In this document: piece after piece, positions 2,309-29,070 of the stretch
How positions within the stretch are numbered: the stretch's first letter is position 1
How the letters are laid out: every line of letters begins with the position of its first letter
Virus record (IMG/VR): IMGVR_UViG_3300027640_000001
DNA from: a virus
Reading direction: 5' to 3' (one strand)
Length of the DNA: 35,852 nt
Position numbers and translations under genes: made by a program
The notes under the pieces: model-generated
What the model was told of the DNA's origin: nothing
Seen by the model: the letters and a program-made list of their open reading frames with translations, nothing else
Database searches by the model: none

Positions 2309-2832
2309 TGCGGAGCCCCCGTTGTGCCACCGCTGTCGCCGGGGTGCGTGTGGTTGACCAGGCTGATGCCGGCGGCAACCACGTCGTCGCTGACCGTTAC
2401 TAGGCCGGTTATATCCACGTTGCCCAGAATGCTGACGCCGCCGGGCGCGACGAGCCTGGCCGCACCGCCGACGGGCAGCGTGGCGGTGAGCGTGTGGGTG
2501 GCGGTGTCGTAGTCGATCACGGCGCCATCGCGGTAGCGGCGGCGACGGCGGTTCACGTTGGTATCCGGTGCGGGAAACAGGTCGCTGTAGATGCCGCCCA
2601 GGACGAAGCCGTGGGCCGGGTTGCCGGACGGCGACAGGACGAGGCATTGCTCGTCGATGCTGGGCGGATCCCACTCGGCATCCTCACCGGCACGCAGTAC
2701 CAGGAACGGCAGCCAACCGGTGAGTAACCCGCCGGTTTTGACCCGGCAGCGCGGCGCGTCCGGATCGATCTCGGCAATGGTGCCGGGGCGGATCAGGTTT
2801 TCGAGGCGGCGAAGGATGTCGGTGATGTTCAT
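2305..2832 (-). CDS. gpV: Baseplate assembly/spike protein gpV-like
   Basis: MNITDILRRLENLIRPGTIAEID... is a classic gpV N-terminus; 175 aa. Confidence 0.88.
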   Translation of the reverse strand: MNITDILRRLENLIRPGTIAEIDPDAPRCRVKTGGLLTGWLPFLVLRAGEDAEWDPPSIDEQCLVLSPSGNPAHGFVLGGIYSDLFPAPDTNVNRRRRRYRDGAVIDYDTATHTLTATLPVGGAARLVAPGGVSILGNVDITGLVTVSDDVVAAGISLVNHTHPGDSGGTTGAPQ

Positions 2833-2878
2833 GCGGCCATGCTCGCGTTCGCGCGCGCGGGACGCACTGGGCAGGCCG

Positions 2879-2897
2879 TGTAGCGGGTGGCGTTACA
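2879..2897 (-). promoter_or_regulatory. Candidate Ogr-type late-promoter activator site upstream of V (TGT-N13-ACA)
   Basis: The minus strand reads cTGTaacgccacccgctACAcggcc, nearly the same as the site upstream of FI. A GCGCGCGCG run lies about 20 nt downstream in both. Confidence 0.5.
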
Positions 2898-2900
2898 GCG

Positions 2901-3356
2901 TCAGCGCACTGGGTGCGCCAGCAGTTGGTCGCGAATCATGTCCAGTTCGTCGGGGCTGAAGCCGAGCAGCTCGCGCCGGGCGTACTGGATGTCCGGCGCG
3001 TTGCGCCCGGGGCGGTCGCGCAGGCCGTATTGGTGGACACGGGCGAGCCGTGCGGTACGGCCAAGGAAGCCGATGGCGATACTGCTGGCGTCACTCTGTA
3101 GCTTGAGGTGTTTGGCGGCGCGCAGCTTGGTGAACATCTTGCGCTTGACCCTGCCCTGCTTCGCCCGCAGCGGCTCGCGGGGCTTGCGCGGTGCGAACGG
3201 CGTACCATCCGGATTGCGCTGGGCGGCGATGCGCTGTTGCTGACTGCGGCGCAGCTCGCGGGCGATGGACTGGGTGACCTTGCGGCGCTCGGCCGGCTGC
3301 AGGCGATTGAGCAGCGCGCCCGCCCAGTCCTCGAGGGCGTTCAGATCATCAGCCAC
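2901..3356 (-). CDS. gpS: Tail completion / virion morphogenesis protein gpS-like
   Basis: 151 aa in the R-S-V order. It is a basic protein typical of P2 gpS. Confidence 0.8.
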   Translation of the reverse strand: MADDLNALEDWAGALLNRLQPAERRKVTQSIARELRRSQQQRIAAQRNPDGTPFAPRKPREPLRAKQGRVKRKMFTKLRAAKHLKLQSDASSIAIGFLGRTARLARVHQYGLRDRPGRNAPDIQYARRELLGFSPDELDMIRDQLLAHPVR

Positions 3357-3834
3357 CGCTGCCCAGCTCCGCGATCAGCTCGCCGTCGGTGGTTTCGATG
3401 CGCAGCGTTGGCAGCAGGAACAGCTCATCATCGACCACCGGCTCGGCTGGGTGGCTGACTTGCAGGGTGCCGTCGTCCAGGCGCTTGACGAGGACGCGCT
3501 CGGTAAGTGGCAGGGTGATGGACAGGTCGACCTTGCTGTTGTCGAGGATGTCCGCTTCGAACTTGATCGCGTCCCGACCCTTCTCCAGGTTCTCCATCAG
3601 CTCGCGCTGGTTGACCAGCACCCAGGCAAACAGCGGGATGGCCACGGCATCCGGATGGCCGGCGAAGTCGGTGAGGATGATGTTCAGCGTGTAGCTGTAT
3701 TCGAAGGACAAGCCCGGCGCGGCGGTGCTGCGCATGCTGCCGTTGTCGACGAAGGTGAGCAGCCGGTCGGGGTTGCGCTTGAGATCGGGCACGGCGGCGA
3801 TCAGATGGGCGCGTAGGGATTCGGGTTTGTTCAT
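3349..3834 (-). CDS. gpR: Tail completion protein gpR-like
   Basis: 161 aa, MNKPESLRAHLIAAVPDLKRNPDRLLTFVDNG..., in the P2 gpR position. Confidence 0.8.
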   Translation of the reverse strand: MNKPESLRAHLIAAVPDLKRNPDRLLTFVDNGSMRSTAAPGLSFEYSYTLNIILTDFAGHPDAVAIPLFAWVLVNQRELMENLEKGRDAIKFEADILDNSKVDLSITLPLTERVLVKRLDDGTLQVSHPAEPVVDDELFLLPTLRIETTDGELIAELGSGG

Positions 3835-4094
3835 GGCTGAGCGCTGCGCTGGTTGTGGTCAACGACCAGGTCGACCTTGGCCGCGCACTCGGCCCAGGCG
3901 CTCATCAGGTAATCGGCGTCGTCGCTGAGCTCGCCGTTACTGGCCGGCGATGCTGGGTTTAGCGTGCAGCGCGTCACGACCGGACAACCACTGACGGTAA
4001 CCTGCGGCTCCGGTGACGGCGGGACGTTGGTGCAGGCGGCGAGCAGCATCAGGCAGAGGCTGAGCAGCCCAAGTCGTATGGGTTGGGTCTTCAC
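3831..4094 (-). CDS. o-spanin (Rz1/LysC-like outer-membrane lipoprotein)
   Basis: GTG at 4094 follows AAGGA. VKTQPIRLGLLSLCLMLLAAC contains the lipobox LAAC. The frame is +1 relative to the i-spanin, begins inside it and extends past its stop (overlapped architecture). An ATGA junction links it to gpR. Confidence 0.75.
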   Translation of the reverse strand: MKTQPIRLGLLSLCLMLLAACTNVPPSPEPQVTVSGCPVVTRCTLNPASPASNGELSDDADYLMSAWAECAAKVDLVVDHNQRSAQP

Positions 4095-21640: not shown

Positions 21641-22159
21641 CTACTTCTTTCTGTTCTGCCCGGGCTTGCGCGACCGATGCAGAAGAATCACTGCGTGTAC
21701 CTCTGAATGCCGCGCTGCCATGTGCTGGCGGTGCGCATCGAGGATGGCCTTGGCTTCCCCTTCGTCGATTTCGCCGTTGGCCAGTGCCCCGGCAATGATC
21801 TTGTCCACTGCGCCGCGCTTTACGGCGGTCTTCATGCAGCGTTCATACAGCTCGATGTTGTCCAGCTCGTCCGGGTTGGCGACCGGTACGAACACGCCGC
21901 CATACAGCGCAGCGACGTAATCAGGGAAATGCGTAGTGCCGGCCTCTTGCTCGAGCTGGTGAAGCTGGTCATCGCTCAGCGGGCGGCTACCGGCGCTTTC
22001 ATAGACGTGGTTGTCCAGCTTCTTGATCGGCAAGCCCAGCCGCGCCGCGGCGCACTCACGCCCGCCTGGGTAGTCGCAAACCACTGCGCTCATCACTTGC
22101 CGGCGACTCTCTAGAACGGTGCGCTTCATCTTCTGGTTTCTCGCTGGGGCCTGAGCCAT
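21641..22159 (-). CDS. CII (CP76/YmfL)-like regulatory protein
   Basis: 172 aa, second gene of the lytic operon as in 186. It has an HTH-like segment ECAAARLGLPIKKLDNHVY. Confidence 0.6.
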   Translation of the reverse strand: MAQAPARNQKMKRTVLESRRQVMSAVVCDYPGGRECAAARLGLPIKKLDNHVYESAGSRPLSDDQLHQLEQEAGTTHFPDYVAALYGGVFVPVANPDELDNIELYERCMKTAVKRGAVDKIIAGALANGEIDEGEAKAILDAHRQHMAARHSEVHAVILLHRSRKPGQNRKK

Positions 22160-22416
22160 TACTTTGGAATCACGGCGCCGATGTCGGTCGCGCGGCGGCC
22201 GTACTCGTCGGGGAGATCGGCAACCACGCCCTGTTTAATTCCGAACAGCACAGCGGCACGGTGCGATTCACCCCGCGCGCCTTTCTTCGCACCGGACAGC
22301 ACCTGGTAGCAGGTGAACGGGTCGAGGCCGTTCTCACGGGCAAATTCCTGGACAGACTTGCCCTGCTGGGCGAGCCATTCCTTCGCTTGTTCGGGAGTGC
22401 GTGTGGCTGGCATCAT
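22159..22416 (-). CDS. Cro/Apl-equivalent: Ner/Nlp-like small DNA-binding protein
   Basis: EWLAQQGKSVQEFARENGLDPFTCYQVLSGAKKGARGESHRAAVLFGIK. It is the first gene of the leftward early operon and diverges from cI. Confidence 0.7.
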   Translation of the reverse strand: MMPATRTPEQAKEWLAQQGKSVQEFARENGLDPFTCYQVLSGAKKGARGESHRAAVLFGIKQGVVADLPDEYGRRATDIGAVIPK

Positions 22417-22501
22417 TCAAAACCATTCAAATGCGTTCAATGTGGCAGAAGAATATCACTCATTTGAGTGGTGTCAACGGGAATTTCTATTCAAATGAGT
22501 G
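22414..22501. promoter_or_regulatory. Immunity switch: overlapping divergent promoters plus operator repeats
   Basis: Leftward promoter: TTGACA (22472-22477 on the complement), 16 nt, TATTCT (22450-22455 on the complement). Rightward promoter: TTCAAA (22426-22431), 17 nt, AAGAAT (22449-22454). Perfect palindrome CACTCA-TT-TGAGTG at 22457-22470. Weaker copies occur near 22424-22437 and 22488-22501. Three tandem 10-bp units CATTCAAAAC/CATTCAAATG/CGTTCAATGT span 22414-22443. Confidence 0.5.
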
Positions 22502-22845
22502 GTCTCGGCGAACGCCTACGCGAAGAAAGGAAGCGACTCGGCCTCTCACAGGGCGATTTCGGCGCGCTGGGCGGTGTAAAAGCCAACGCCCAAGGCAAAT
22601 ACGAATCGGACGAGCGAAGCCCCGATGCGACGTATCTGAACGGTCTTTCTTCAGCCGGAGTGGACGTGCTCTACGTTCTGACCGGCAAGCGCACCCCTGT
22701 CACCGCCGAGGGCCTTGAGGCCGATGAATCAGAAGTGCTTAACCATTACCGCGCCATGCCGGAAAGCGATCGCGCCGCCGTGCGCCGAATGACCTCCGCA
22801 CTGGCCGAGTCGGCCGGGCGGTATGTAATCGATTCAGACCAATGA
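22495..22845 (+). CDS. CI-type repressor (XRE HTH, 116 aa, no S24 peptidase domain)
   Basis: ATG at 22495. MSGLGERLREERKRLGLSQGDFGALGGV...VDVLYVLTGK is followed by a short C-terminal segment SEVLNHYRAMPESDRAAVRRMTSALAES. Confidence 0.75.
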   Translation: MSGLGERLREERKRLGLSQGDFGALGGVKANAQGKYESDERSPDATYLNGLSSAGVDVLYVLTGKRTPVTAEGLEADESEVLNHYRAMPESDRAAVRRMTSALAESAGRYVIDSDQ

Positions 22846-22883: not shown

Positions 22884-23126
22884 ATGACCGCAGCAGCCAT
22901 CGACCTAGACGACCAGCCCCGCCACTTCGGTGACCGCCTGCTCGAAGAGCGCAAGCGCCTCAATTTGCAGGTGCACGAGCTGGCCCACCTCGCCGGCCAG
23001 ACCGACTACATGCAGAAACGCTTCGAGAACGGCACCTCGATCATCCCCATCGACTACCTGCAGGCGCTAGCAGCCCGCAGCGATGCCGACGTGCTGTACA
23101 TCATCACCGGCGCCCGTAGCCGCTGA
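22884..23126 (+). CDS. Second XRE-type HTH protein, a paralogue of the CI N-terminal domain (80 aa)
   Basis: FGDRLLEERKRLNLQVHELAHLAG...ADVLYIITG aligns by eye with the CI N-terminus over its whole length. Confidence 0.7.
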   Translation: MTAAAIDLDDQPRHFGDRLLEERKRLNLQVHELAHLAGQTDYMQKRFENGTSIIPIDYLQALAARSDADVLYIITGARSR

Positions 23127-23155
23127 TCTGCCCTCACCAAACAAGGAACGTTCCC

Positions 23156-23479
23156 ATGCGCAATGTCCTGCTCGGCCTGCTGCTGGTCAGCCCGATCGCT
23201 CTCGCGGGCCCGCCCAAGCTGATCGATGCCGATAGTTTTGGTGCCAGCTGGCCATTCACCTTTGAGGAAGCCCACCTGCAGTGTTACCCGGGCCGGGCCG
23301 TAGTGGTAAGTGATGCTGAAACTGGGCGGTCCTACCCCGTCAACGGGGCGGCGTCCAGCAAGGCGGGTCAATTTGGCCTCGAACCGCTAGACCAGGTCTG
23401 GCGGGAAAACACCGCGATCCCAGGCACGAAAGTGAGCGTCGGGCCCGTCATTGAAGTTGGTCTAGGACTCTGTGGCTGA
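23156..23479 (+). CDS. Secreted DUF2511/YebY-like protein
   Basis: Signal peptide MRNVLLGLLLVSPIALAG. The W-F-EE-L-C-PG...YP-N...C pattern recalls E. coli YebY. Confidence 0.6.
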   Translation: MRNVLLGLLLVSPIALAGPPKLIDADSFGASWPFTFEEAHLQCYPGRAVVVSDAETGRSYPVNGAASSKAGQFGLEPLDQVWRENTAIPGTKVSVGPVIEVGLGLCG

Positions 23480-23582
23480 TCGTGAGATGAAATCTGCGCT
23501 CTGCACTTGGTCGCTCTGACCAGACTGCAGTTAGAAAACAACAACGCCAACAAACACTAAAAGGGTTACCTGGGGAGGGACC

Positions 23583-24578
23583 TTGCACCGTACAGCAACT
23601 TTTTTTGATCTAAAAATAACGGCTAGTGGCAAGTCGAACGTAAAAGGCTTTGAGACCATTTTCGAGGCTACACCGAAATCGCTCAGCGAGATCTACCAGT
23701 TCATCGAAAAGCTTATGGCTTCGGGTGATCGACTGTTGCAAAAAGGCCGCACTTCAAAATCCGCTCGATTCTATCTTGCCGATATGAAGCTCCAAGGCTC
23801 GAAATTGGTCCTGCTTGTAAATCGGTGCGACCCGACTGCGCCGGACGCCGTTTCATCGGATCCAGAAAATAAGAGTCGAGTTGTGCATACGAAGCCGGAG
23901 GGGCACGGAGGAGATTTTTCTGCACACGTGGTAATTGAGACCACCCCTATCAAGGGTGATAACTACTACCTTTGCGTGATCGAAACGGTCTTTGGATCGG
24001 GTCTCCATGCCAGCAGTGTTGCCGGTTATCTTCGCCATGTATTCCGTCATTGCCGCCTACAGTTCCCCTCTGAGTTTCTGATCCCACACGATAGCGGTGC
24101 GAAGCAAAAGGACGGCTCACCTGTCACCGTACGGCACGTTCACTTTGCGGAGCTTCAAGGCCATCCATCTACGGAATTTGAAAAAGAGCTGTCAGAAGGA
24201 ACTCTCTCCGGTCTTGAACTGCTCGATTTTTCAACTAAGGGTGCGGTGTGGGATGAGCAGGGTGTGATAGAGGAACAGGGGCGTAAAGTCCTGCTTCGCC
24301 CGGAGAAGAAAGTTCTCAAAGATACAGCTAAGGCTGTGCAGCAGATAAGATCCAAGGTTCTAGGCGATAAAAACCTTCACTACCCACAAATCCGAATAAG
24401 GTTTACTAATCAAAAAGGTGAGCCCCGAGACGCAACCATAGACACTGAGTCGGGGCGTCTCGTTAATGAACAGAAATACGTAAAACGCCACGTCATTAAT
24501 GCACCAACAATAAATACAGCTAGCTTAGATGCAATCAACGGCATTATTATAAAGCAAGTACTCCGCCTGATGGGGTGA
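23583..24578 (+). CDS. Unknown 331-aa soluble protein, first gene of the low-GC two-gene cassette (candidate RexA-like sensor)
   Basis: TTG start 3 nt after GGGGAGGG. It has no hydrophobic segments. GC is far below the backbone. Confidence 0.7.
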   Translation: MHRTATFFDLKITASGKSNVKGFETIFEATPKSLSEIYQFIEKLMASGDRLLQKGRTSKSARFYLADMKLQGSKLVLLVNRCDPTAPDAVSSDPENKSRVVHTKPEGHGGDFSAHVVIETTPIKGDNYYLCVIETVFGSGLHASSVAGYLRHVFRHCRLQFPSEFLIPHDSGAKQKDGSPVTVRHVHFAELQGHPSTEFEKELSEGTLSGLELLDFSTKGAVWDEQGVIEEQGRKVLLRPEKKVLKDTAKAVQQIRSKVLGDKNLHYPQIRIRFTNQKGEPRDATIDTESGRLVNEQKYVKRHVINAPTINTASLDAINGIIIKQVLRLMG

Positions 24579-24581
24579 GCA

Positions 24582-25148
24582 ATGTTAATTGGCCAACTTT
24601 TAAAACCATATAGCTATCTGACCATTCGTCATCCATATAAATGGGTGGTTGACTGGCTATATCCTGGGCTGTTGGCAGTCGCCACGATGGCGACTTTAGT
24701 AAGCACGGGTAACATCCAAACAGCTATGGATCCGGAGGGTGCAGTATCAATGCTGCTATTCTTTATACAATCCCTTCCTGGCTTCTATATAGCTGCCCTG
24801 GCTGCAATAGCGACATTTGGGCGAGCAGATATCGATAGCATTTTGCCGGAGCCTACACCTAGGATCAAAATCCGGTTCCGTAATACCGACAACCTAGTTG
24901 CACTAACTCGCCGCCGCTTTTTGGCAATGTTGTTTGCTTTCCTGACAGCTGAAAGTATTACCCTCGTATTATTTTCAGTTTTTCTTGTTTCATACTCTGG
25001 AGATATAGCAAATCTGAATGTAAACGAGTACCCGCTTGGCGAGTGGCTGATAGCAGCAATGGGGCTAGGATACTTTGTTGCTCTATTTCAGATGCTCATA
25101 GTAACGTTTTGGGGGCTGTATTACCTAGGACATAAGTTGCACGAATAA
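24582..25148 (+). CDS. Unknown 188-aa four-TM membrane protein, second gene of the cassette (candidate RexB-like effector)
   Basis: The ATG lies 3 nt after the upstream TGA. Hydrophobic segments are about aa 21-41, 54-79, 111-138 and 155-183. Line 24541-24600 is 42% GC by hand count. Confidence 0.75.
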   Translation: MLIGQLLKPYSYLTIRHPYKWVVDWLYPGLLAVATMATLVSTGNIQTAMDPEGAVSMLLFFIQSLPGFYIAALAAIATFGRADIDSILPEPTPRIKIRFRNTDNLVALTRRRFLAMLFAFLTAESITLVLFSVFLVSYSGDIANLNVNEYPLGEWLIAAMGLGYFVALFQMLIVTFWGLYYLGHKLHE

Positions 25149-25172
25149 CCTTTCGAGTAATTGGTTTGATCT

Positions 25173-25592
25173 TCAAACTATTTCTCGCACCATCGGCCAC
25201 CGATCATGGATCCAGGAATACTCCTCCGGCGGCGTGCTGGTGACCACATAGACGCGCCGCTGCTCTCCCTCCCCCAATACCAGGCAGTCCAGCGCGAAGC
25301 CTGCCTGCATGTCGAACCAGTGGGATTTTCGCGACGCGTCTTTCTCCATGTAGCGCTGCACCAGGCCGAACGCACGTAGCGGCTCGTATTTCGCCCAGCC
25401 GCCCCGCTCTACCGTCTCCAGCCGTGCCCAGCCGCCTTGCGGGCCTTGGCCGGGCTCTTCGCGGCGTCGACCCCACTTGACCCAGCCCAGCGACTCGCCG
25501 CCCTCCAGCATCACGGGGAATGCGGCCTTGGGGCTGGGGAAATAGACCTTGTAGGCCTTCTCGGCGTCTCGCGCTTCTACGCCACCGCACAT
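25173..25592 (-). CDS. Miniature SRAP (SOS-response-associated peptidase/YedK)-like protein, 139 aa
   Basis: Strong SD (GGAGGcaaccATG). N-terminus MCGG (Cys2), ARLETV, and SWIHDRWPMV resembling the SRAP IHDRMP motif. It diverges from umuDC across a LexA box. Confidence 0.6.
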   Translation of the reverse strand: MCGGVEARDAEKAYKVYFPSPKAAFPVMLEGGESLGWVKWGRRREEPGQGPQGGWARLETVERGGWAKYEPLRAFGLVQRYMEKDASRKSHWFDMQAGFALDCLVLGEGEQRRVYVVTSTPPEEYSWIHDRWPMVREIV

Positions 25593-25650: not shown

Positions 25651-25670
25651 TACTGTATGCGCATACAGTA
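25651..25670. promoter_or_regulatory. LexA (SOS) box
   Basis: TACTGTATGCGCATACAGTA is a perfect palindrome of CTGT-N8-ACAG type. It is preceded by TTGACC (25626-25631). It lies 19 nt upstream of umuD and 59 nt upstream of the SRAP-like gene. Confidence 0.85.
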
Positions 25671-25688: not shown

Positions 25689-26126
25689 ATGACGCTCACC
25701 ATTCTGGGTCGCGAGGATCGGCTGCGGCACCTGCTGCCGGAAGCCGCCGACCTGCGCATTACGGGCTTTCAGTCGCCCGCCGAGGACGAGAAGGAAGGCT
25801 GCCTGTCGCTGGATAGCCTGGTGGGCCTCGGGGCGCCGCAGATCTGGGTGGTTAGGGTCGACGATGACAGCCTGCTGGGCTTCGGCATGTACCCGGGCGA
25901 TCGCCTGGTGGTGGACCGCTCGGCCCGCTGCGCGCCGGACTGCTACGTGGTGGTCGGGATGGATGGTGAAAGCCAATACCGGGTACGGCTGCTGACCGAG
26001 GATGCCGACGGGCGCCTGGTACTGAAAGCCGCCCACCGTTTCGCCGCTCCGATCAACCTGGAGCTCGAGGAGCTGGTCGAGATTTTCGGCATGGTGCGCT
26101 GGGTCATCAGCTATGTGGGGCGCTGA
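25689..26126 (+). CDS. umuD: UmuD/RulA-like protein (LexA-type S24 fold) with an apparently degenerate active site
   Basis: ATG at 25689. GFQSPAED corresponds to GFPSPAAD, DDSL to GDSM, and YRVRLL to FTVKKL. Confidence 0.75.
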   Translation: MTLTILGREDRLRHLLPEAADLRITGFQSPAEDEKEGCLSLDSLVGLGAPQIWVVRVDDDSLLGFGMYPGDRLVVDRSARCAPDCYVVVGMDGESQYRVRLLTEDADGRLVLKAAHRFAAPINLELEELVEIFGMVRWVISYVGR

Positions 26127-26128
26127 GC

Positions 26129-27394
26129 ATGCCCATCTTTGCGCTGATTGATTGCAACTCGTTCTACTGCAGCTGCGAGCGGATTTGCCAGCCGGAGCTC
26201 AAGCGCAAGCCGGTGGTGGTGCTCTCGAACAACGACGGCTGCGTGATCGCGCGGACCAGCGAGGTGAAGCAGCTCGGCATTCCAATGGGTGCGCCCTTCT
26301 TCCAGGTGCGTGACCAGCTCGCCGCCGCCGGGGTGGTGGTGCGCTCGAGCAACTACACGCTGTACGCCGATATCAGTAACCGGGTGATGACGGTGCTGGC
26401 CAGCATGCTGCCGGCGATCGAGGTGTATTCCATCGACGAGGCCTGGGGCGATATGTCCGGCGTACAGGAGGACCTCACCGACTACGGCAAGCGGATCCGC
26501 GCGCGGCTGCTGCAATGGGTGGGCATGCCGGTGGGCGTGGGCATCAGCACGACGAAGACGCTCGCTAAGCTAGCTAACTGGGCGGCGAAGAAGTGGCCGG
26601 CCACCGGCGGCGTGGTGGACCTGACCGACCCGGCCCGGCAGGAACGGCTGCTGCGCATCGCGGCGGTGAGTGAAGTCTGGGGCGTTGGCCGGCGCCTGGC
26701 TGCGCGCTTGCGGCCGCTGGGCATCGAAACCGCGTGGGATCTCGCCCAGTACGACATCGGCACCCTGCGTAAGACGTTCGGCGTCACCCTGGAGCGCACC
26801 GCGCGCGAGCTGCGCGGCATCAGCTGCATCGGCATGAACGAAGGCCCGCCGCCGAAGCAGGCGATCTGCTCGAGCAAGATGTTTGGCCGCAAGCTGCGGG
26901 ACCTGGAACCCATCCAGGAAGCGATGGCCACCTACGTCACCCGCGCGGCCGAGAAGCTCCGCCAGCAGGAGTCACTCTGCGGGGCGCTGCAGGTGAGCCT
27001 GCAGACGCAGTACCACAACCCGGAACTGCCCCGGTACGCCAACGGCATCACCTGCCCGCTCGCCACGCCCACCGACGATACCCGCGACCTGCTGGCCGTC
27101 GCCCTGCGCGGGCTGCGCCATATCTACCGCCCCGGCTACGCGTACTCGAAGTGTGCGGTGCTGCTGATCGATCTGAGCCAGCGCGGGGAAGTGACGCCGG
27201 ACCTGTTCGCGCCGGCACCGCGGCGCGGCGCGGAACGCTTGATGAGCATCGTCGATCAGATCAACAAGCGCGAGGGCCGCGGTACGGTACGCCTGGGCCG
27301 GGTACCCGCTGAGCCGGAATGGGGCATGCGCCGCGACATGAAGAGCCGCTGCTATACCACCAACTGGGACGAGCTGATTACCGTCGGCGCCTGA
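26129..27394 (+). CDS. umuC: Y-family DNA polymerase UmuC/RulB-like
   Basis: MPIFALIDCNSFYCSCERICQPELKRKPVVVLSNNDGCVIARTSEVKQLGI...YSIDEAW is a canonical UmuC N-terminus. Confidence 0.92.
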   Translation: MPIFALIDCNSFYCSCERICQPELKRKPVVVLSNNDGCVIARTSEVKQLGIPMGAPFFQVRDQLAAAGVVVRSSNYTLYADISNRVMTVLASMLPAIEVYSIDEAWGDMSGVQEDLTDYGKRIRARLLQWVGMPVGVGISTTKTLAKLANWAAKKWPATGGVVDLTDPARQERLLRIAAVSEVWGVGRRLAARLRPLGIETAWDLAQYDIGTLRKTFGVTLERTARELRGISCIGMNEGPPPKQAICSSKMFGRKLRDLEPIQEAMATYVTRAAEKLRQQESLCGALQVSLQTQYHNPELPRYANGITCPLATPTDDTRDLLAVALRGLRHIYRPGYAYSKCAVLLIDLSQRGEVTPDLFAPAPRRGAERLMSIVDQINKREGRGTVRLGRVPAEPEWGMRRDMKSRCYTTNWDELITVGA

Positions 27395-27706: not shown

Positions 27707-27820
27707 TTACATGCACATCGGCGCGGTGTCGCACCCTTCCAACTCTTCGTCGATCAGCTCCCAGGCGGAGCGTGCCGGCGGTTCGGGTGGTGGTGCTAAC
27801 GGTTCCTGCTGGTCGCTCAT
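27707..27820 (-). CDS. Possible 37-aa ORF translationally coupled to gpD
   Basis: The ATG at 27820 forms ATGA with the D stop. Sequence MSDQQEPLAPPPEPPARSAWELIDEELEGCDTAPMCM. It ends at the terminator. Confidence 0.3.
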   Translation of the reverse strand: MSDQQEPLAPPPEPPARSAWELIDEELEGCDTAPMCM

Positions 27821-29070
27821 GCCTGCAGCCGCTCCCATTCCCGCTTCACCGCCCGCTCCGCACTGGCTTTGCTCTGGTACAGGTGCGTCAGCCTTTTGGG
27901 GCTGGTCTGGTCGCCCTCGGTGATCTTCTTTTGTTCGCCGGTCTTCTCGTCCCGGTACCAGGCAACGATGCCGGTGTAGCTGCCCGCCTCGACCAGCTCG
28001 GCGATGTCGTCGGCGTCCGGCAGTTTCGATTCCAGCTCGAGCGCGGTGGTGTAGGCCTCCGGTGTGAAGCTGTGGCGCACGTTGGCGCCGAGCCAGACGA
28101 TGGCGGCGATCTCGGTTTTGATGCCGGTGAGGCTGTACGTCAGCTCGGGGATCAGCTCCGGCCGGCCCTTAGCGAGCACGTAGCTGAGCGTGCCGGTACC
28201 ACGCTGCAGGCGGCTCCACTCGGCGCGTGCGGCGCGCAGGGCCGCTTCCTGGTCGGTGTAGGTGTGGCGCAAGTCCTTGAGGTTGTCGCCGCCGCCGGCG
28301 ATGGCCTCCTTCTTCTCGGCGCTGTTGACCTCGTAGTAGTAGGCACGCACGCCGCTGTAGCTGTCGCGATCCGCCTCGAGGTAACGGTGCTGGTCACCGT
28401 CCGCCCGGGTCAGGGAGATATGCGGCAGCGCGGCGCCGCTGGCGGTGACGGATTTGCCGACCGGCATGAACAGCAGCCGCCCGGCCTTGATGGCGGCGAT
28501 GGCGTCGAACTGCTCGCCCAGGCGCGAAAGCAGGTTGGCATCGGATTCGTTGGCCTGGTCGATATGGGCCAGCTCGATGACGCTGAGCGCCGCGCTGACC
28601 ACCGCCCCCAGTCCGTAGGCACCGGCAATGGATTGAACGATCACGCCGAGCGTCTGGCCATGCCAGCTGCGCTCCTTCTTCGCCTTGAGGCCTCCGCGCA
28701 GGTCGGCGCTGCGGGCGCGGATGCGCAGCTGATCCGGCGCGCCGCTGTGCTCGGTTTCATCCACCGTGTAGCTGCCCTTGCCGACCAGACCGGTGTCGCT
28801 CCAGCCGAGCCATAGCTGCAGCTTGGCGCCACGCGGCGGGATGGCGAGCAGCCCGTCGTGGTCGGACAGCGTGACGGTGAGCTGGTCCGCTTCCATGCCG
28901 CGGTTGTCGGTCAGCTCGATGCTGACCAGGCGCTTCTCGATCGCGGCGGTGATGTCTTGCCCGTTGACCATCAGCCGGCAGATCGGCTGCGGGTAGGCCG
29001 TCGCATCGCGGTAAGCCTCGCCGGCCCTCTTCAAGTAGCCGCCGGCCTGGCTCAGAACCTGATCGATCAC
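27817..29070 (-). CDS. gpD: Tail protein gpD-like (late control D)
   Basis: 417 aa, last gene of the FI...D operon. Confidence 0.88.
   Translation of the reverse strand: MIDQVLSQAGGYLKRAGEAYRDATAYPQPICRLMVNGQDITAAIEKRLVSIELTDNRGMEADQLTVTLSDHDGLLAIPPRGAKLQLWLGWSDTGLVGKGSYTVDETEHSGAPDQLRIRARSADLRGGLKAKKERSWHGQTLGVIVQSIAGAYGLGAVVSAALSVIELAHIDQANESDANLLSRLGEQFDAIAAIKAGRLLFMPVGKSVTASGAALPHISLTRADGDQHRYLEADRDSYSGVRAYYYEVNSAEKKEAIAGGGDNLKDLRHTYTDQEAALRAARAEWSRLQRGTGTLSYVLAKGRPELIPELTYSLTGIKTEIAAIVWLGANVRHSFTPEAYTTALELESKLPDADDIAELVEAGSYTGIVAWYRDEKTGEQKKITEGDQTSPKRLTHLYQSKASAERAVKREWERLQA

What the first reader, a model, noticed from the sequence alone, without database searches (positions are those of the whole stretch)
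23583..25148. Uncharacterised low-GC two-gene cassette downstream of cI: soluble 331-aa protein plus four-TM 188-aa protein (Rex-like architecture)
Two tightly coupled genes sit in an island of about 40-50% GC inside a 60-65% GC phage. The TGA, gca, ATG junction separates them by 3 nt, and the first uses a TTG start behind GGGGAGGG. They lie on the same strand as cI and downstream of it, in the lysogenic-conversion region between the immunity genes and the SOS cassette. The first product has no hydrophobic segments and I cannot assign it to any family by eye. The second has four clear TM helices. This combination matches lambda cI-rexA-rexB: a cytoplasmic RexA sensor followed by a four-TM RexB effector, expressed in lysogens and causing abortive exclusion. 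From my recollection of RexA, the segment FSAHVVIETTPIKGDNYYLCVIETVFGSG..YL loosely recalls FPSFLFVEGDTIGFARTVFGPTT..FL, but I cannot verify that here. P2-like prophages are known to carry anti-phage systems at variable loci. This is my best candidate for an undescribed prophage-encoded defence or superinfection-exclusion system.
Basis: partly seen in the sequence, partly recalled or inferred. Interest (0 to 1): 0.85.

Follow-up and report, generated by a model that had tools for sequence, protein, structure and literature searches.

The report
Rex-type prophage anti-phage gene pair
The two low-GC genes downstream of the phage repressor are real and are a new member of a known family: relatives in Pseudomonas putida (RexABpp) were shown in 2026 to stop other phages by damaging the cell membrane.

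Summary
ORFs 23583-24578 (331 aa, soluble) and 24582-25148 (188 aa, four TM helices) lie 3 nt apart in a 47% GC island inside a 64% GC phiCTX/P2-like phage. They sit on the repressor strand, downstream of it.

The pair is not undescribed. Both proteins match PADLOC's untested candidate system PDC-M53 end to end (A 3.5e-146, B 3.1e-70). They are 52% and 55% identical over full length to P. putida KT2440 PP_5643/PP_5644. That pair was validated as the "RexAB-type" defence RexABpp (Rosendahl et al., Sci Rep 2026). There, RexApp is a dimeric, non-specific DNA binder and RexBpp is the membrane-damaging effector.

A is followed by B in all 38 loci where the downstream DNA is present. The pair occurs in P2-like, lambdoid, filamentous and PM2-like temperate phages, usually just after the repressor.

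My tests found no sequence homology to lambda RexA or RexB (Pfam, hhalign). Fold searches gave only weak hits to proteins annotated like RdgC. The published HHpred link to RexA was therefore not reproduced here.

Verdict: a new member of a known kind.

The parts
23572..23579 (+). Shine-Dalgarno-like GGGGAGGG, 3 nt before the TTG start of gene A
   Evidence: Read directly from the sequence.
23583..24578 (+). Gene A (rexA-pp-like, PDC-M53A). Encodes a 331-aa basic cytoplasmic protein (pI 9.15) with two alpha+beta domains. Proposed sensor and DNA binder.
   Evidence: ORF. PADLOC PDC-M53A E=3.5e-146, full length. phrog_31143 E=3.6e-141. 52% identity over 330 aa to KT2440 PP_5643/AMM02978.1. AF2 model pLDDT 88.8, pTM 0.83. 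Across 84 diverse members H115 and E134 are invariant and R3, L78, D83, G109, S196 and G206 are conserved in at least 90%.
24582..25148 (+). Gene B (rexB-pp-like, PDC-M53B). Encodes a 188-aa inner-membrane protein with four TM helices. Proposed growth-arresting, membrane-permeabilising effector.
   Evidence: ORF. PADLOC PDC-M53B E=3.1e-70, full length. phrog_8257 E=2e-36. 55% identity over 188 aa to KT2440 PP_5644/AMM02979.1. Hydropathy. AF2 model pLDDT 87.5.
24639..24707 (+). B TM helix 1 (aa 20-42), preceded by an N-terminal amphipathic helix (aa 2-14)
   Evidence: AF2 secondary structure and hydropathy. W25 is invariant in the family and is the site of a W25stop suppressor in RexBpp.
24741..24815 (+). 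B TM helix 2 (aa 54-78), carrying the invariant motif LPGFYIAALAA..TF
24816..24908 (+). B loop with a beta-hairpin (aa 79-109; strands 94-99 and 102-107). It is rich in Arg and Lys, so it is inferred to be cytoplasmic and a candidate contact or gating surface for A.
   Evidence: AF2 model and charge map. Invariant D83, I84, D85, P89, P91, P93 and L108-R111. The topology is inferred from the positive-inside rule.
24909..25010 (+). B TM helix 3 (aa 110-143), beginning with the invariant LTRRxFL..F.FLT
25035..25142 (+). B TM helix 4 (aa 152-187), with Q170 and the conserved TFWGLYYLG motif
   Evidence: Y181 is invariant, and Y181H inactivates RexBpp.
22468..22845 (+). cI-type HTH repressor gene, first gene of the same-strand block that ends with A and B (context)
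   Evidence: Pfam HTH_3/HTH_31 and PHROG transcriptional repressor/regulator families. A divergent cro-like HTH gene (22159-22416, -) and a CII-like gene (21641-22159, -) lie alongside.
22884..23479 (+). Two intervening same-strand genes: a second HTH gene (22884-23126) and a secreted YebY/DUF2511 gene (23156-23479)
   Evidence: Intergenic gaps are 38, 29 and 103 nt.

Best explanation
The cassette is a RexABpp-type (PADLOC PDC-M53) two-gene anti-phage system carried as lysogenic-conversion cargo by a phiCTX/P2-like Pseudomonas phage.

Proposed mechanism:
1. The genes are transcribed in the lysogen with the repressor-strand genes. This is inferred from short same-strand gaps here and from gaps of 8-24 nt in relatives.
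2. Protein A is a basic cytoplasmic dimer that binds DNA non-specifically. It senses a cue from a superinfecting phage, probably a replication or recombination DNA-protein intermediate.
3. Activated A switches on protein B, an oligomeric four-TM inner-membrane protein.
4. B compromises membrane integrity and arrests growth, which aborts the infection.

Shown here:
- Gene structure and TM topology.
- Family membership.
- Strict A-then-B pairing.
- The repressor-linked prophage location.

Shown only for the P. putida homologue (PMC12894663):
- Both genes are needed for defence.
- A binds DNA and dimerises.
- A overexpression causes B-dependent growth arrest and membrane permeability.

Inferred:
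- This copy is active.
- The nature of the trigger.
- Direct A-B contact.
For: - PADLOC PDC-M53A and PDC-M53B both match at full length.
- Identity to KT2440 AMM02978.1 and AMM02979.1 is 52% and 55% over full length.
- Those two proteins are PP_5643/PP_5644. The KT2440 B sequence carries W25, F35, L55, S145, G153 and Y181 exactly as in the paper's suppressor list. A plus a His6 tag computes to 37.44 kDa, against the published 37.5 kDa.
- A is followed by B, 8 nt of overlap to 12 nt apart, in every locus examined where the downstream DNA is present: 25 of 25.
- A repressor-type gene is the first or second upstream same-strand gene in about 14 of 21 unique loci. Counts are 12 Peptidase_S24 and 2 Phage_CI_repr; the assignment of hits to individual loci was inferred from ORF lengths rather than read from the output.
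- The repressor-to-A gap is 24 nt in P. mosselii. In strain SLBN-26, A starts 8 nt after a gene that itself follows cI by 38 nt.
- All family-invariant residues are present in this copy.
- A has pI 9.15, the same as RexApp.
- The same cI-gpD hotspot carries other defence-like cargo in a relative.
Against: - Nothing was tested on this copy, and identity to the validated pair is only 52-55%.
- In the published work no A-B interaction was detected by two-hybrid assay, and no escape phages were obtained. Complementation of the rexApp deletion did not restore defence. Membrane permeabilisation was seen only in a subpopulation.
- No sigma-70 consensus promoter or terminator was found around the cassette, so co-transcription with cI is unproven.
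- H115 and E134 are invariant in A. That pattern looks more like a catalytic or ligand-binding site than a pure DNA clamp.
Confidence: 0.8

Rival explanations
1. The pair works like Rex but is an independent invention, not a homologue of lambda RexA/RexB. On this view "RexAB-type" describes architecture and position only.
For: - No Pfam RexA or RexB hit for the window proteins at E<=1.
- No Pfam family recurs, and RexA is not hit, in 84 A-family members at E<=0.1. The same holds for RexB in 43 B-family members.
- hhalign of the A family (84 or 187 sequences) against a 26-sequence RexA profile gives probability 0.2%.
- The B profile against RexB gives probability 0.3%.
- Foldseek against PDB does not return RexA (8TWQ) or RdgC among the top 50 hits.
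- The paper itself found no RexB homology for PP_5644.
Against: - My RexA profile is shallow (Neff about 3.3).
- Foldseek against BFVD gave weak hits (E 1.4e-4 and 7e-4, TM about 0.25) to phage proteins annotated 'recombination associated protein' and 'exonuclease'. I take these to be RdgC-like from the names alone. RdgC is the fold class RexA belongs to.
Confidence: 0.3
2. The main role is not defence. The pair could be a prophage-maintenance or lysis-lysogeny modulator, as lambda RexA biases the switch, or an addiction-type module in which B is a latent toxin.
For: - Lambda RexA acts on the bistable switch independently of RexB (abstract of PMC11077077).
- The pair is embedded in the immunity operon.
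- B is growth-inhibitory when triggered.
Against: - Deleting either gene in P. putida sensitised cells to phages 7B and 9A.
- In Shigella phage SfII the pair sits at the Q-S moron site, away from the immunity region. In a Vibrio PM2-like element it sits next to the integrase. So it moves as autonomous cargo rather than as part of a particular switch.
- The PDC set, which includes PDC-M53, was assembled from gene cassettes found embedded in BREX, DISARM or type I RM systems.
Confidence: 0.1
3. This particular copy is inactive or decaying cargo.
For: - It uses a TTG start with a short 3-nt spacer after the Shine-Dalgarno sequence.
- No recognisable dedicated promoter was found.
Against: - Both ORFs are full length and align with homologues from the first residue to the last.
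- All invariant residues are retained.
- The identical proteins occur on 17 contigs.
Confidence: 0.07

Closest known systems
RexABpp of Pseudomonas putida KT2440/PaW85 prophage P1 (PP_5643/PP_5644; Rosendahl et al., Sci Rep 2026, PMC12894663)
   Same: - Same two protein families, at 52% (A) and 55% (B) identity over full length.
- Same order, A then B, with a gap of a few nt.
- Same sizes (330/188 aa against 331/188 aa).
- B has four TM helices in both.
- A has the same pI of 9.15.
- Both lie downstream of a CI-like repressor, separated from it by two small genes (for the window).
   Different: - The carrier is a phiCTX/P2-like myovirus, with the pair in the cI-gpD cargo region. KT2440 prophage P1 has an S24-type CI.
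- The sequences have diverged by about 45-48%.
- Of the four RexBpp suppressor substitution sites, three differ here (T35, V55 and L145 in place of F35, L55 and S145). Y181 is conserved.
- This copy has not been tested.
PADLOC-DB v2 candidate system PDC-M53 (Payne et al., guilt-by-embedding; bioRxiv 10.1101/2024.01.29.577857)
   Same: Both proteins match the A and B models end to end. The Vibrio PM2-like phage pair also matches.
   Different: PDC-M53 is an untested bioinformatic candidate. It comes from a set assembled from cassettes embedded in BREX, DISARM or type I RM systems. Every instance I examined is in a prophage. The RexABpp paper does not mention PADLOC or PDC, so the equivalence of the two names is established here.
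Lambda cI-rexA-rexB exclusion system
   Same: - Position directly downstream of the repressor on the same strand. This is exact in the lambdoid Pseudomonas prophages L005, L042 and L044 (lambda map).
- A soluble protein followed by a four-TM protein.
- In the P. putida homologue, overexpressing A triggers B-dependent membrane damage, as happens with RexA and RexB.
   Different: - No sequence similarity was detectable here.
- The proteins are larger (331/188 aa against 279/144 aa).
- B has an extra N-terminal amphipathic helix and a beta-hairpin loop.
Actinophage Rex-like pairs (Sbash gp30/gp31, CarolAnn gp44/gp43, Butters gp30/gp31)
   Same: Prophage-encoded pairs of a cytoplasmic protein and a membrane protein that give heterotypic defence. 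The paper lists them alongside RexABpp as the known Rex-like systems.
   Different: No sequence comparison was made here. In Butters the roles are reversed: the cytosolic protein is the effector.
Kiwa (KwaA four-TM protein plus KwaB DUF4868)
   Same: A small four-TM protein paired with a soluble protein of about 310-330 aa, often in prophage hotspots (from my own knowledge).
   Different: No KwaA, KwaB or DUF4868 hit in PADLOC or Pfam. The gene order is reversed. No Kiwa structure appears among the Foldseek PDB hits for A or B.

Membership tests
PADLOC PDC-M53 | Protein matches the PDC-M53A HMM | tested here: met
   PDLC04694 E=3.5e-146, protein residues 1-330 on profile positions 1-330 of 331.
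PADLOC PDC-M53 | The adjacent same-strand protein matches the PDC-M53B HMM | tested here: met
   PDLC04699 E=3.1e-70, protein residues 1-188 on profile positions 1-186 of 188. The gap between the genes is 3 nt.
RexABpp type (P. putida PP_5643/PP_5644) | Full-length homology of A to RexApp | tested here: met
   52% identity over 330 aa, E=3e-130. The identity of the reference sequence was confirmed.
RexABpp type (P. putida PP_5643/PP_5644) | Full-length homology of B to RexBpp, with four TM helices | tested here: met
   55% identity over 188 aa, E=2e-77. Four hydrophobic segments and helices.
RexABpp type (P. putida PP_5643/PP_5644) | Prophage location downstream of a CI-like repressor on the same strand | tested here: met
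   cI-type HTH gene at 22468-22845 (+), then two small genes, then A and B.
RexABpp type (P. putida PP_5643/PP_5644) | Both genes are required for phage defence, and A overexpression triggers B-dependent growth arrest and membrane permeability | not testable with these tools
   Shown only for the P. putida pair.
RexABpp type (P. putida PP_5643/PP_5644) | A is a dimeric, non-specific DNA-binding protein | not testable with these tools
   The pI of 9.15 is compatible. EMSA and two-hybrid data exist only for RexApp.
Lambda RexA/RexB sensu stricto (Pfam PF15969 for RexA; the RexB accession PF15968 is from my memory) | A matches the RexA family by sequence or profile | tested here: not met
   No Pfam hit at E<=1 and none in 84 family members. 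hhalign probability 0.1-0.2% against the RexA sequence or profile. BLASTP E>=2.7. Caveat: the paper reports HHpred probability 98.19 for PP_5643 against RexA, which I could not reproduce.
Lambda RexA/RexB sensu stricto (Pfam PF15969 for RexA; the RexB accession PF15968 is from my memory) | B matches the RexB family by sequence or profile | tested here: not met
   No Pfam hit. BLASTP E=1.2. hhalign probability 0.3%. The paper also found none.
Lambda RexA/RexB sensu stricto (Pfam PF15969 for RexA; the RexB accession PF15968 is from my memory) | A has the RexA/RdgC two-domain fold | tested here: inconclusive
Lambda RexA/RexB sensu stricto (Pfam PF15969 for RexA; the RexB accession PF15968 is from my memory) | cI-A-B synteny in the immunity region | tested here: met
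   Seen in the window. Lambdoid relatives have the order S24-CI, A, B with a divergent cro. Lambda map.
Kiwa (KwaA/KwaB) | The soluble partner carries DUF4868 or matches the KwaB HMM, and the membrane partner matches KwaA | tested here: not met
   PADLOC returns only PDC-M53 models at E<=1. Pfam returns nothing.

The most novel reading that the evidence does not exclude
Protein A may be more than a passive DNA clamp. His115 and Glu134 are invariant across 84 sequences that share only 19-61% identity with the window protein. Together with the conserved R3, D83, G109 and S196 on neighbouring beta-strands, they could mark a catalytic or small-ligand site. In that case the family would sense or process a phage-derived nucleic acid or nucleotide. 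It would also be an independent lineage that converged on the Rex architecture. That lineage has spread as a two-gene cassette across four structurally unrelated kinds of temperate phage: P2-like, lambdoid, filamentous and PM2-like.
Probability: 0.2. Interest if true: 0.55.

Novelty: new member of a known kind. Interest (0 to 1): 0.3.

Why it matters
For this window, the result turns two unannotated ORFs into a defence cassette whose close relatives have been tested experimentally.

More generally, three points are not in the papers I read.

- PADLOC's untested candidate PDC-M53 and the validated RexABpp are the same family. PADLOC PDC-M53 calls can therefore now be read as a validated system.
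- The pair is a strictly coupled mobile module. It occurs in P2-like, lambdoid, filamentous and PM2-like temperate phages of Pseudomonas, Vibrio and Shigella. B-family relatives were also found in a Salmonella and a Moraxella phage. The module usually sits directly behind the repressor, so it is probably expressed in lysogens.
- The membrane partner is the more conserved of the two, and the soluble partner has an invariant His/Glu pair that is worth mutating.

None of this changes the basic picture of Rex-type abortive defence.

Tried and rejected
- Pfam and NCBIfam on both proteins returned nothing. Pfam on 84 A-family and 43 B-family members gave only scattered one-off hits.
- Sequence searches of PDB with the A and B profiles returned nothing.
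- Direct tests against lambda RexA and RexB were all negative. These were BLASTP, profile against sequence, profile against profile, and my own hhalign runs with 187 A sequences in several modes. I therefore do not claim homology to lambda Rex on my own evidence.
- Foldseek of the A model against PDB gave only weak partial hits (E>=9e-3, TM<=0.33). These were to Bet v1/START-like folds and to RNA-triphosphatase folds. I rejected them as a basis for function.
- Foldseek of the B model against PDB gave nothing significant. A partial NINJ1 match (TMt 0.70, E 1.5) is noted but not used.
- Kiwa was rejected.
- Megablast of the cassette against sequenced phages found no match. tblastn of A against PLSDB plasmids found no match.
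- The search for related loci with the diverse alignment A2 failed because it had no conserved stretch to search with. With A1 it found only 6 genome loci.
- I looked for an instance embedded in a BREX or RM system, which is how the PDC set was originally assembled. Among about 40 loci there was none; all were prophages.
- The promoter and terminator scan gave nothing informative around the cassette.
Full report
**1. Observation**

The window contains two same-strand ORFs: 23583..24578 (331 aa, TTG start) and 24582..25148 (188 aa, ATG start). They are separated by TGA-gca-ATG. GGGGAGGG lies 3 nt upstream of the TTG. The TTG start is supported by homologues whose N-termini all read MHRTATF.

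The pair is 47.3% GC and the rest of the window 63.8%. The dip spans roughly 23350-25300.

Protein A has no hydrophobic segment. Protein B has four. A confident AlphaFold2 model of B (pLDDT 87.5, pTM 0.83) shows these elements:
- an N-terminal amphipathic helix;
- TM helices at residues 20-42, 54-78, 110-143 and 152-187;
- a beta-hairpin at residues 94-107.

The Arg/Lys-rich loop that carries the hairpin, together with the basic N-terminus, implies an N-in/C-in topology with the hairpin in the cytoplasm. This is an inference from the positive-inside rule and the charge map.

**2. Setting**

The window is a phiCTX/P2-like phage that is distant from every sequenced phage. Only the terminase region reaches 79% identity to phiCTX.

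The gene order around the cassette is:
- a CII-like gene (21641-22159, -);
- a cro-like HTH gene (22159-22416, -);
- a cI-type HTH gene (22468-22845, +);
- a second HTH gene (22884-23126, +);
- a YebY/DUF2511 gene (23156-23479, +);
- genes A and B;
- a convergent 139-aa ORF (25173-25592, -);
- a umuD-like gene and a umuC-like gene;
- tail gene D (27817-29070, -).

Gaps along the plus-strand block are 38, 29, 103 and 3 nt.

**3. Identity**

Pfam and NCBIfam give nothing for either protein. PADLOC-DB matches both end to end:
- A matches PDC-M53A at 3.5e-146, covering profile positions 1-330 of 331.
- B matches PDC-M53B at 3.1e-70.

PHROGs matches phrog_31143 and phrog_8257, both of unknown function.

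The PDC set is a group of 145 untested "phage defence candidates". Payne et al. derived it from cassettes embedded in BREX, DISARM or type I RM systems. The only paper in the library that mentions PDC-M53 merely lists it.

A literature search then found Rosendahl et al., Sci Rep 2026 (PMC12894663). That paper shows the following for P. putida prophage P1 genes PP_5643 and PP_5644, which lie downstream of the CI-like repressor PP_3896:
- Both genes are required for defence against phages 7B and 9A.
- RexApp dimerises and binds DNA non-specifically.
- Overexpressing RexApp causes growth arrest that depends on RexBpp.
- That arrest is accompanied by SYTOX/PI uptake and beta-galactosidase leakage.
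- Suppressor mutations map to rexBpp: W25stop, G153stop, F35L, L55P, S145N and Y181H.

I confirmed that locus L031 (IMG/VR UViG 637000222) encodes exactly these proteins:
- Its A and B sequences are the consecutive KT2440 entries AMM02978.1 and AMM02979.1.
- Its B carries W25, F35, L55, S145, G153 and Y181.
- Its A plus a His6 tag computes to 37.44 kDa, against the published 37.5 kDa.

The window proteins are 52% (A) and 55% (B) identical to them over full length. The cassette is therefore a new member of the family called PDC-M53 by PADLOC and RexABpp by Rosendahl et al. The paper does not mention PADLOC, so the equivalence of the two names is established here.

**4. Family anatomy and distribution**

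An exhaustive profile search finds 725 A-family representatives (clusters at 50% identity) at E<=1e-3, nearly all about 320-330 aa. The word-seeded search finds 525 B relatives.

A is followed by B in every locus examined where the downstream DNA is present. The spacing runs from 8 nt of overlap to a 12-nt gap (25 of 25 loci).

B diverges more slowly than A. In the Vibrio pair, B is 39% identical and A is 26%. In locus L011, B is 49% and A is 33%. In all six loci where I compared base composition, as in the window, the pair has lower GC than its flanks.

The carriers I found are:
- P2-like prophages of P. aeruginosa and other pseudomonads, with the pair in the same cI-gpD cargo region as here.
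- Lambdoid Pseudomonas prophages with the order S24-CI, A, B and a divergent cro, which is the lambda cI-rexA-rexB position (lambda map).
- A filamentous prophage that encodes Zot.
- PM2-like Vinavirales elements of Vibrio, with the pair next to the integrase.
- Shigella phage SfII, where SfII_50 and SfII_49 (hmmsearch 5.8e-54 and 1.1e-47) occupy the Q-S moron site.

B-family relatives were also found in Salmonella phage F1055 and Moraxella phage Mcat23, where I did not check for A. No copy was found on plasmids.

I scanned 29 first or second upstream ORFs from 21 unique loci. Twelve carry Peptidase_S24 and two carry Phage_CI_repr. The gap from the repressor to A can be as short as 24 nt. This argues for co-transcription with the repressor, and hence expression in lysogens, but it is an inference.

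In one relative the same hotspot also holds an ABC ATPase resembling NsnB, AriA and PDC-M55A.

**5. Conserved residues**

Across 84 diverse A sequences:
- only H115 and E134 are invariant;
- R3, L78, D83, G109, S196 and G206 are conserved in at least 90%.

The A model (pLDDT 88.8, pTM 0.83) has two alpha+beta domains. These residues lie on adjacent strands.

B has long invariant stretches: LPGFYIAALAA in TM2, D83-I84-D85 and the P89/P91/P93 run in the loop, LTRR at the start of TM3, and the TFWGLYYLG motif in TM4. W25 and Y181, which are inactivating sites in RexBpp, are invariant and present in this copy.

**6. Relation to lambda Rex**

Function, architecture and position match. Homology was not demonstrable with my tools:
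- no Pfam RexA or RexB hits;
- BLASTP E>=1.2;
- hhalign probabilities of 0.1-0.3% for both proteins, even with 187 A sequences;
- Foldseek against PDB does not return RexA or RdgC.

Foldseek against BFVD returns four uncharacterised siphovirus proteins (E 2e-10 to 8e-7). It then returns two phage proteins annotated 'recombination associated protein' and 'exonuclease' (E 1.4e-4 and 7e-4, TM about 0.25). I take these two to be RdgC-like from their names alone. That would be compatible with the RexA/RdgC fold class, but the hits are weak.

**7. Mechanism and rivals**

The best explanation (confidence about 0.8) is a RexABpp-type abortive or growth-arrest defence. It has three parts:
- The pair is expressed in the lysogen.
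- A acts as a DNA-binding sensor.
- B acts as an oligomeric membrane effector.

The steps shown only for the P. putida homologue, and the steps that are inferred, are marked in the structured fields.

The rivals are:
- convergence with lambda Rex rather than homology, which is a question of classification (0.3);
- a primary role in prophage maintenance or the lysis-lysogeny switch (0.1);
- an inactive copy (0.07).

**8. Novelty and verdict**

This is a new member of a known kind. A specialist would not be surprised. The added value lies in three things:
- the equivalence of PDC-M53 and RexABpp;
- the spread of the cassette across unrelated phage types, linked to the repressor;
- the invariant His/Glu pair in A.

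Interest is 0.3.

Noticed in passing
window 25653-25668 (+), with 25689-26126 and 26129-27394: A perfect LexA-box-like palindrome, CTGTATGCGCATACAG, is the only CTGT-N8-ACAG match in the window (about 0.4 expected by chance). It lies 21 nt upstream of the ATG of a umuD-like S24 gene, which is followed by a umuC-like Y-family polymerase gene. This looks like an SOS-regulated mutagenic polymerase cassette carried as phage cargo. A umuDC pair sits in the same hotspot of a Pseudomonas sp. SLBN-26 prophage (L040).
   Followed up: partly
window 25173-25592 (-): A 139-aa ORF convergent with gene B begins MCGG. It has normal phage GC content and no Pfam, PHROG or PADLOC hit. It is not similar to the 160-aa gene at the equivalent place in L040. 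Whether it is a real gene is unresolved.
   Followed up: partly
window 23156-23479 (+); L007 4510-4839: A secreted YebY/DUF2511 protein is encoded between the repressor genes and the Rex-type pair. A 56%-identical copy sits in the same cI-gpD hotspot of another P2-like prophage. It appears to be a second, independent piece of lysogenic-conversion cargo.
   Followed up: partly
L007 5085-7756: In a related P2-like prophage the cI-gpD hotspot also carries a 546-aa ABC ATPase next to the PDC-M53 pair. The ATPase matches PADLOC NsnB (1.3e-43), PDC-M55A (1.2e-33) and AriA (6.4e-22). It is followed by a 328-aa partner with a weak PDC-M55B match. The region behaves as a defence hotspot.
   Followed up: partly
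L045 (Shigella phage SfII NC_021857) 2450-4064; L013 (Vibrio phage PQ189345) 4917-6462; L009 8001-9580: The same A-then-B pair occurs in the cultured phage SfII (SfII_50/SfII_49) between Q and the lysis genes on the opposite strand. It also occurs in a PM2-like Vinavirales element next to its integrase, and in a filamentous prophage that encodes Zot. The cassette therefore crosses unrelated phage types.
   Followed up: yes
window 22450-22477 (-): A promoter-like TTGACA-16-TATTCT with a TG extension (10 of 12 matches) lies in the cI/cro divergent region. It points toward the cro-like gene and is a plausible early lytic promoter. No consensus promoter was found for the cI-strand block.
   Followed up: no
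protein B model (window 24582-25148): The Foldseek PDB search gave a partial match to the human membrane-rupture protein NINJ1 (9bia; TM-score 0.70 on the target, rmsd 3.9 over 124 columns, E=1.5). It is not significant, but it is a curious parallel for a membrane-damaging effector with an N-terminal amphipathic helix.
   Followed up: no
L031 6996-7562 (KT2440 PP_5644): The RexABpp paper places a 10-nt insertion in codon 'T103', but the KT2440 protein has T102 and D103. The other six residues it names match exactly, so this is probably a numbering slip.
   Followed up: yes
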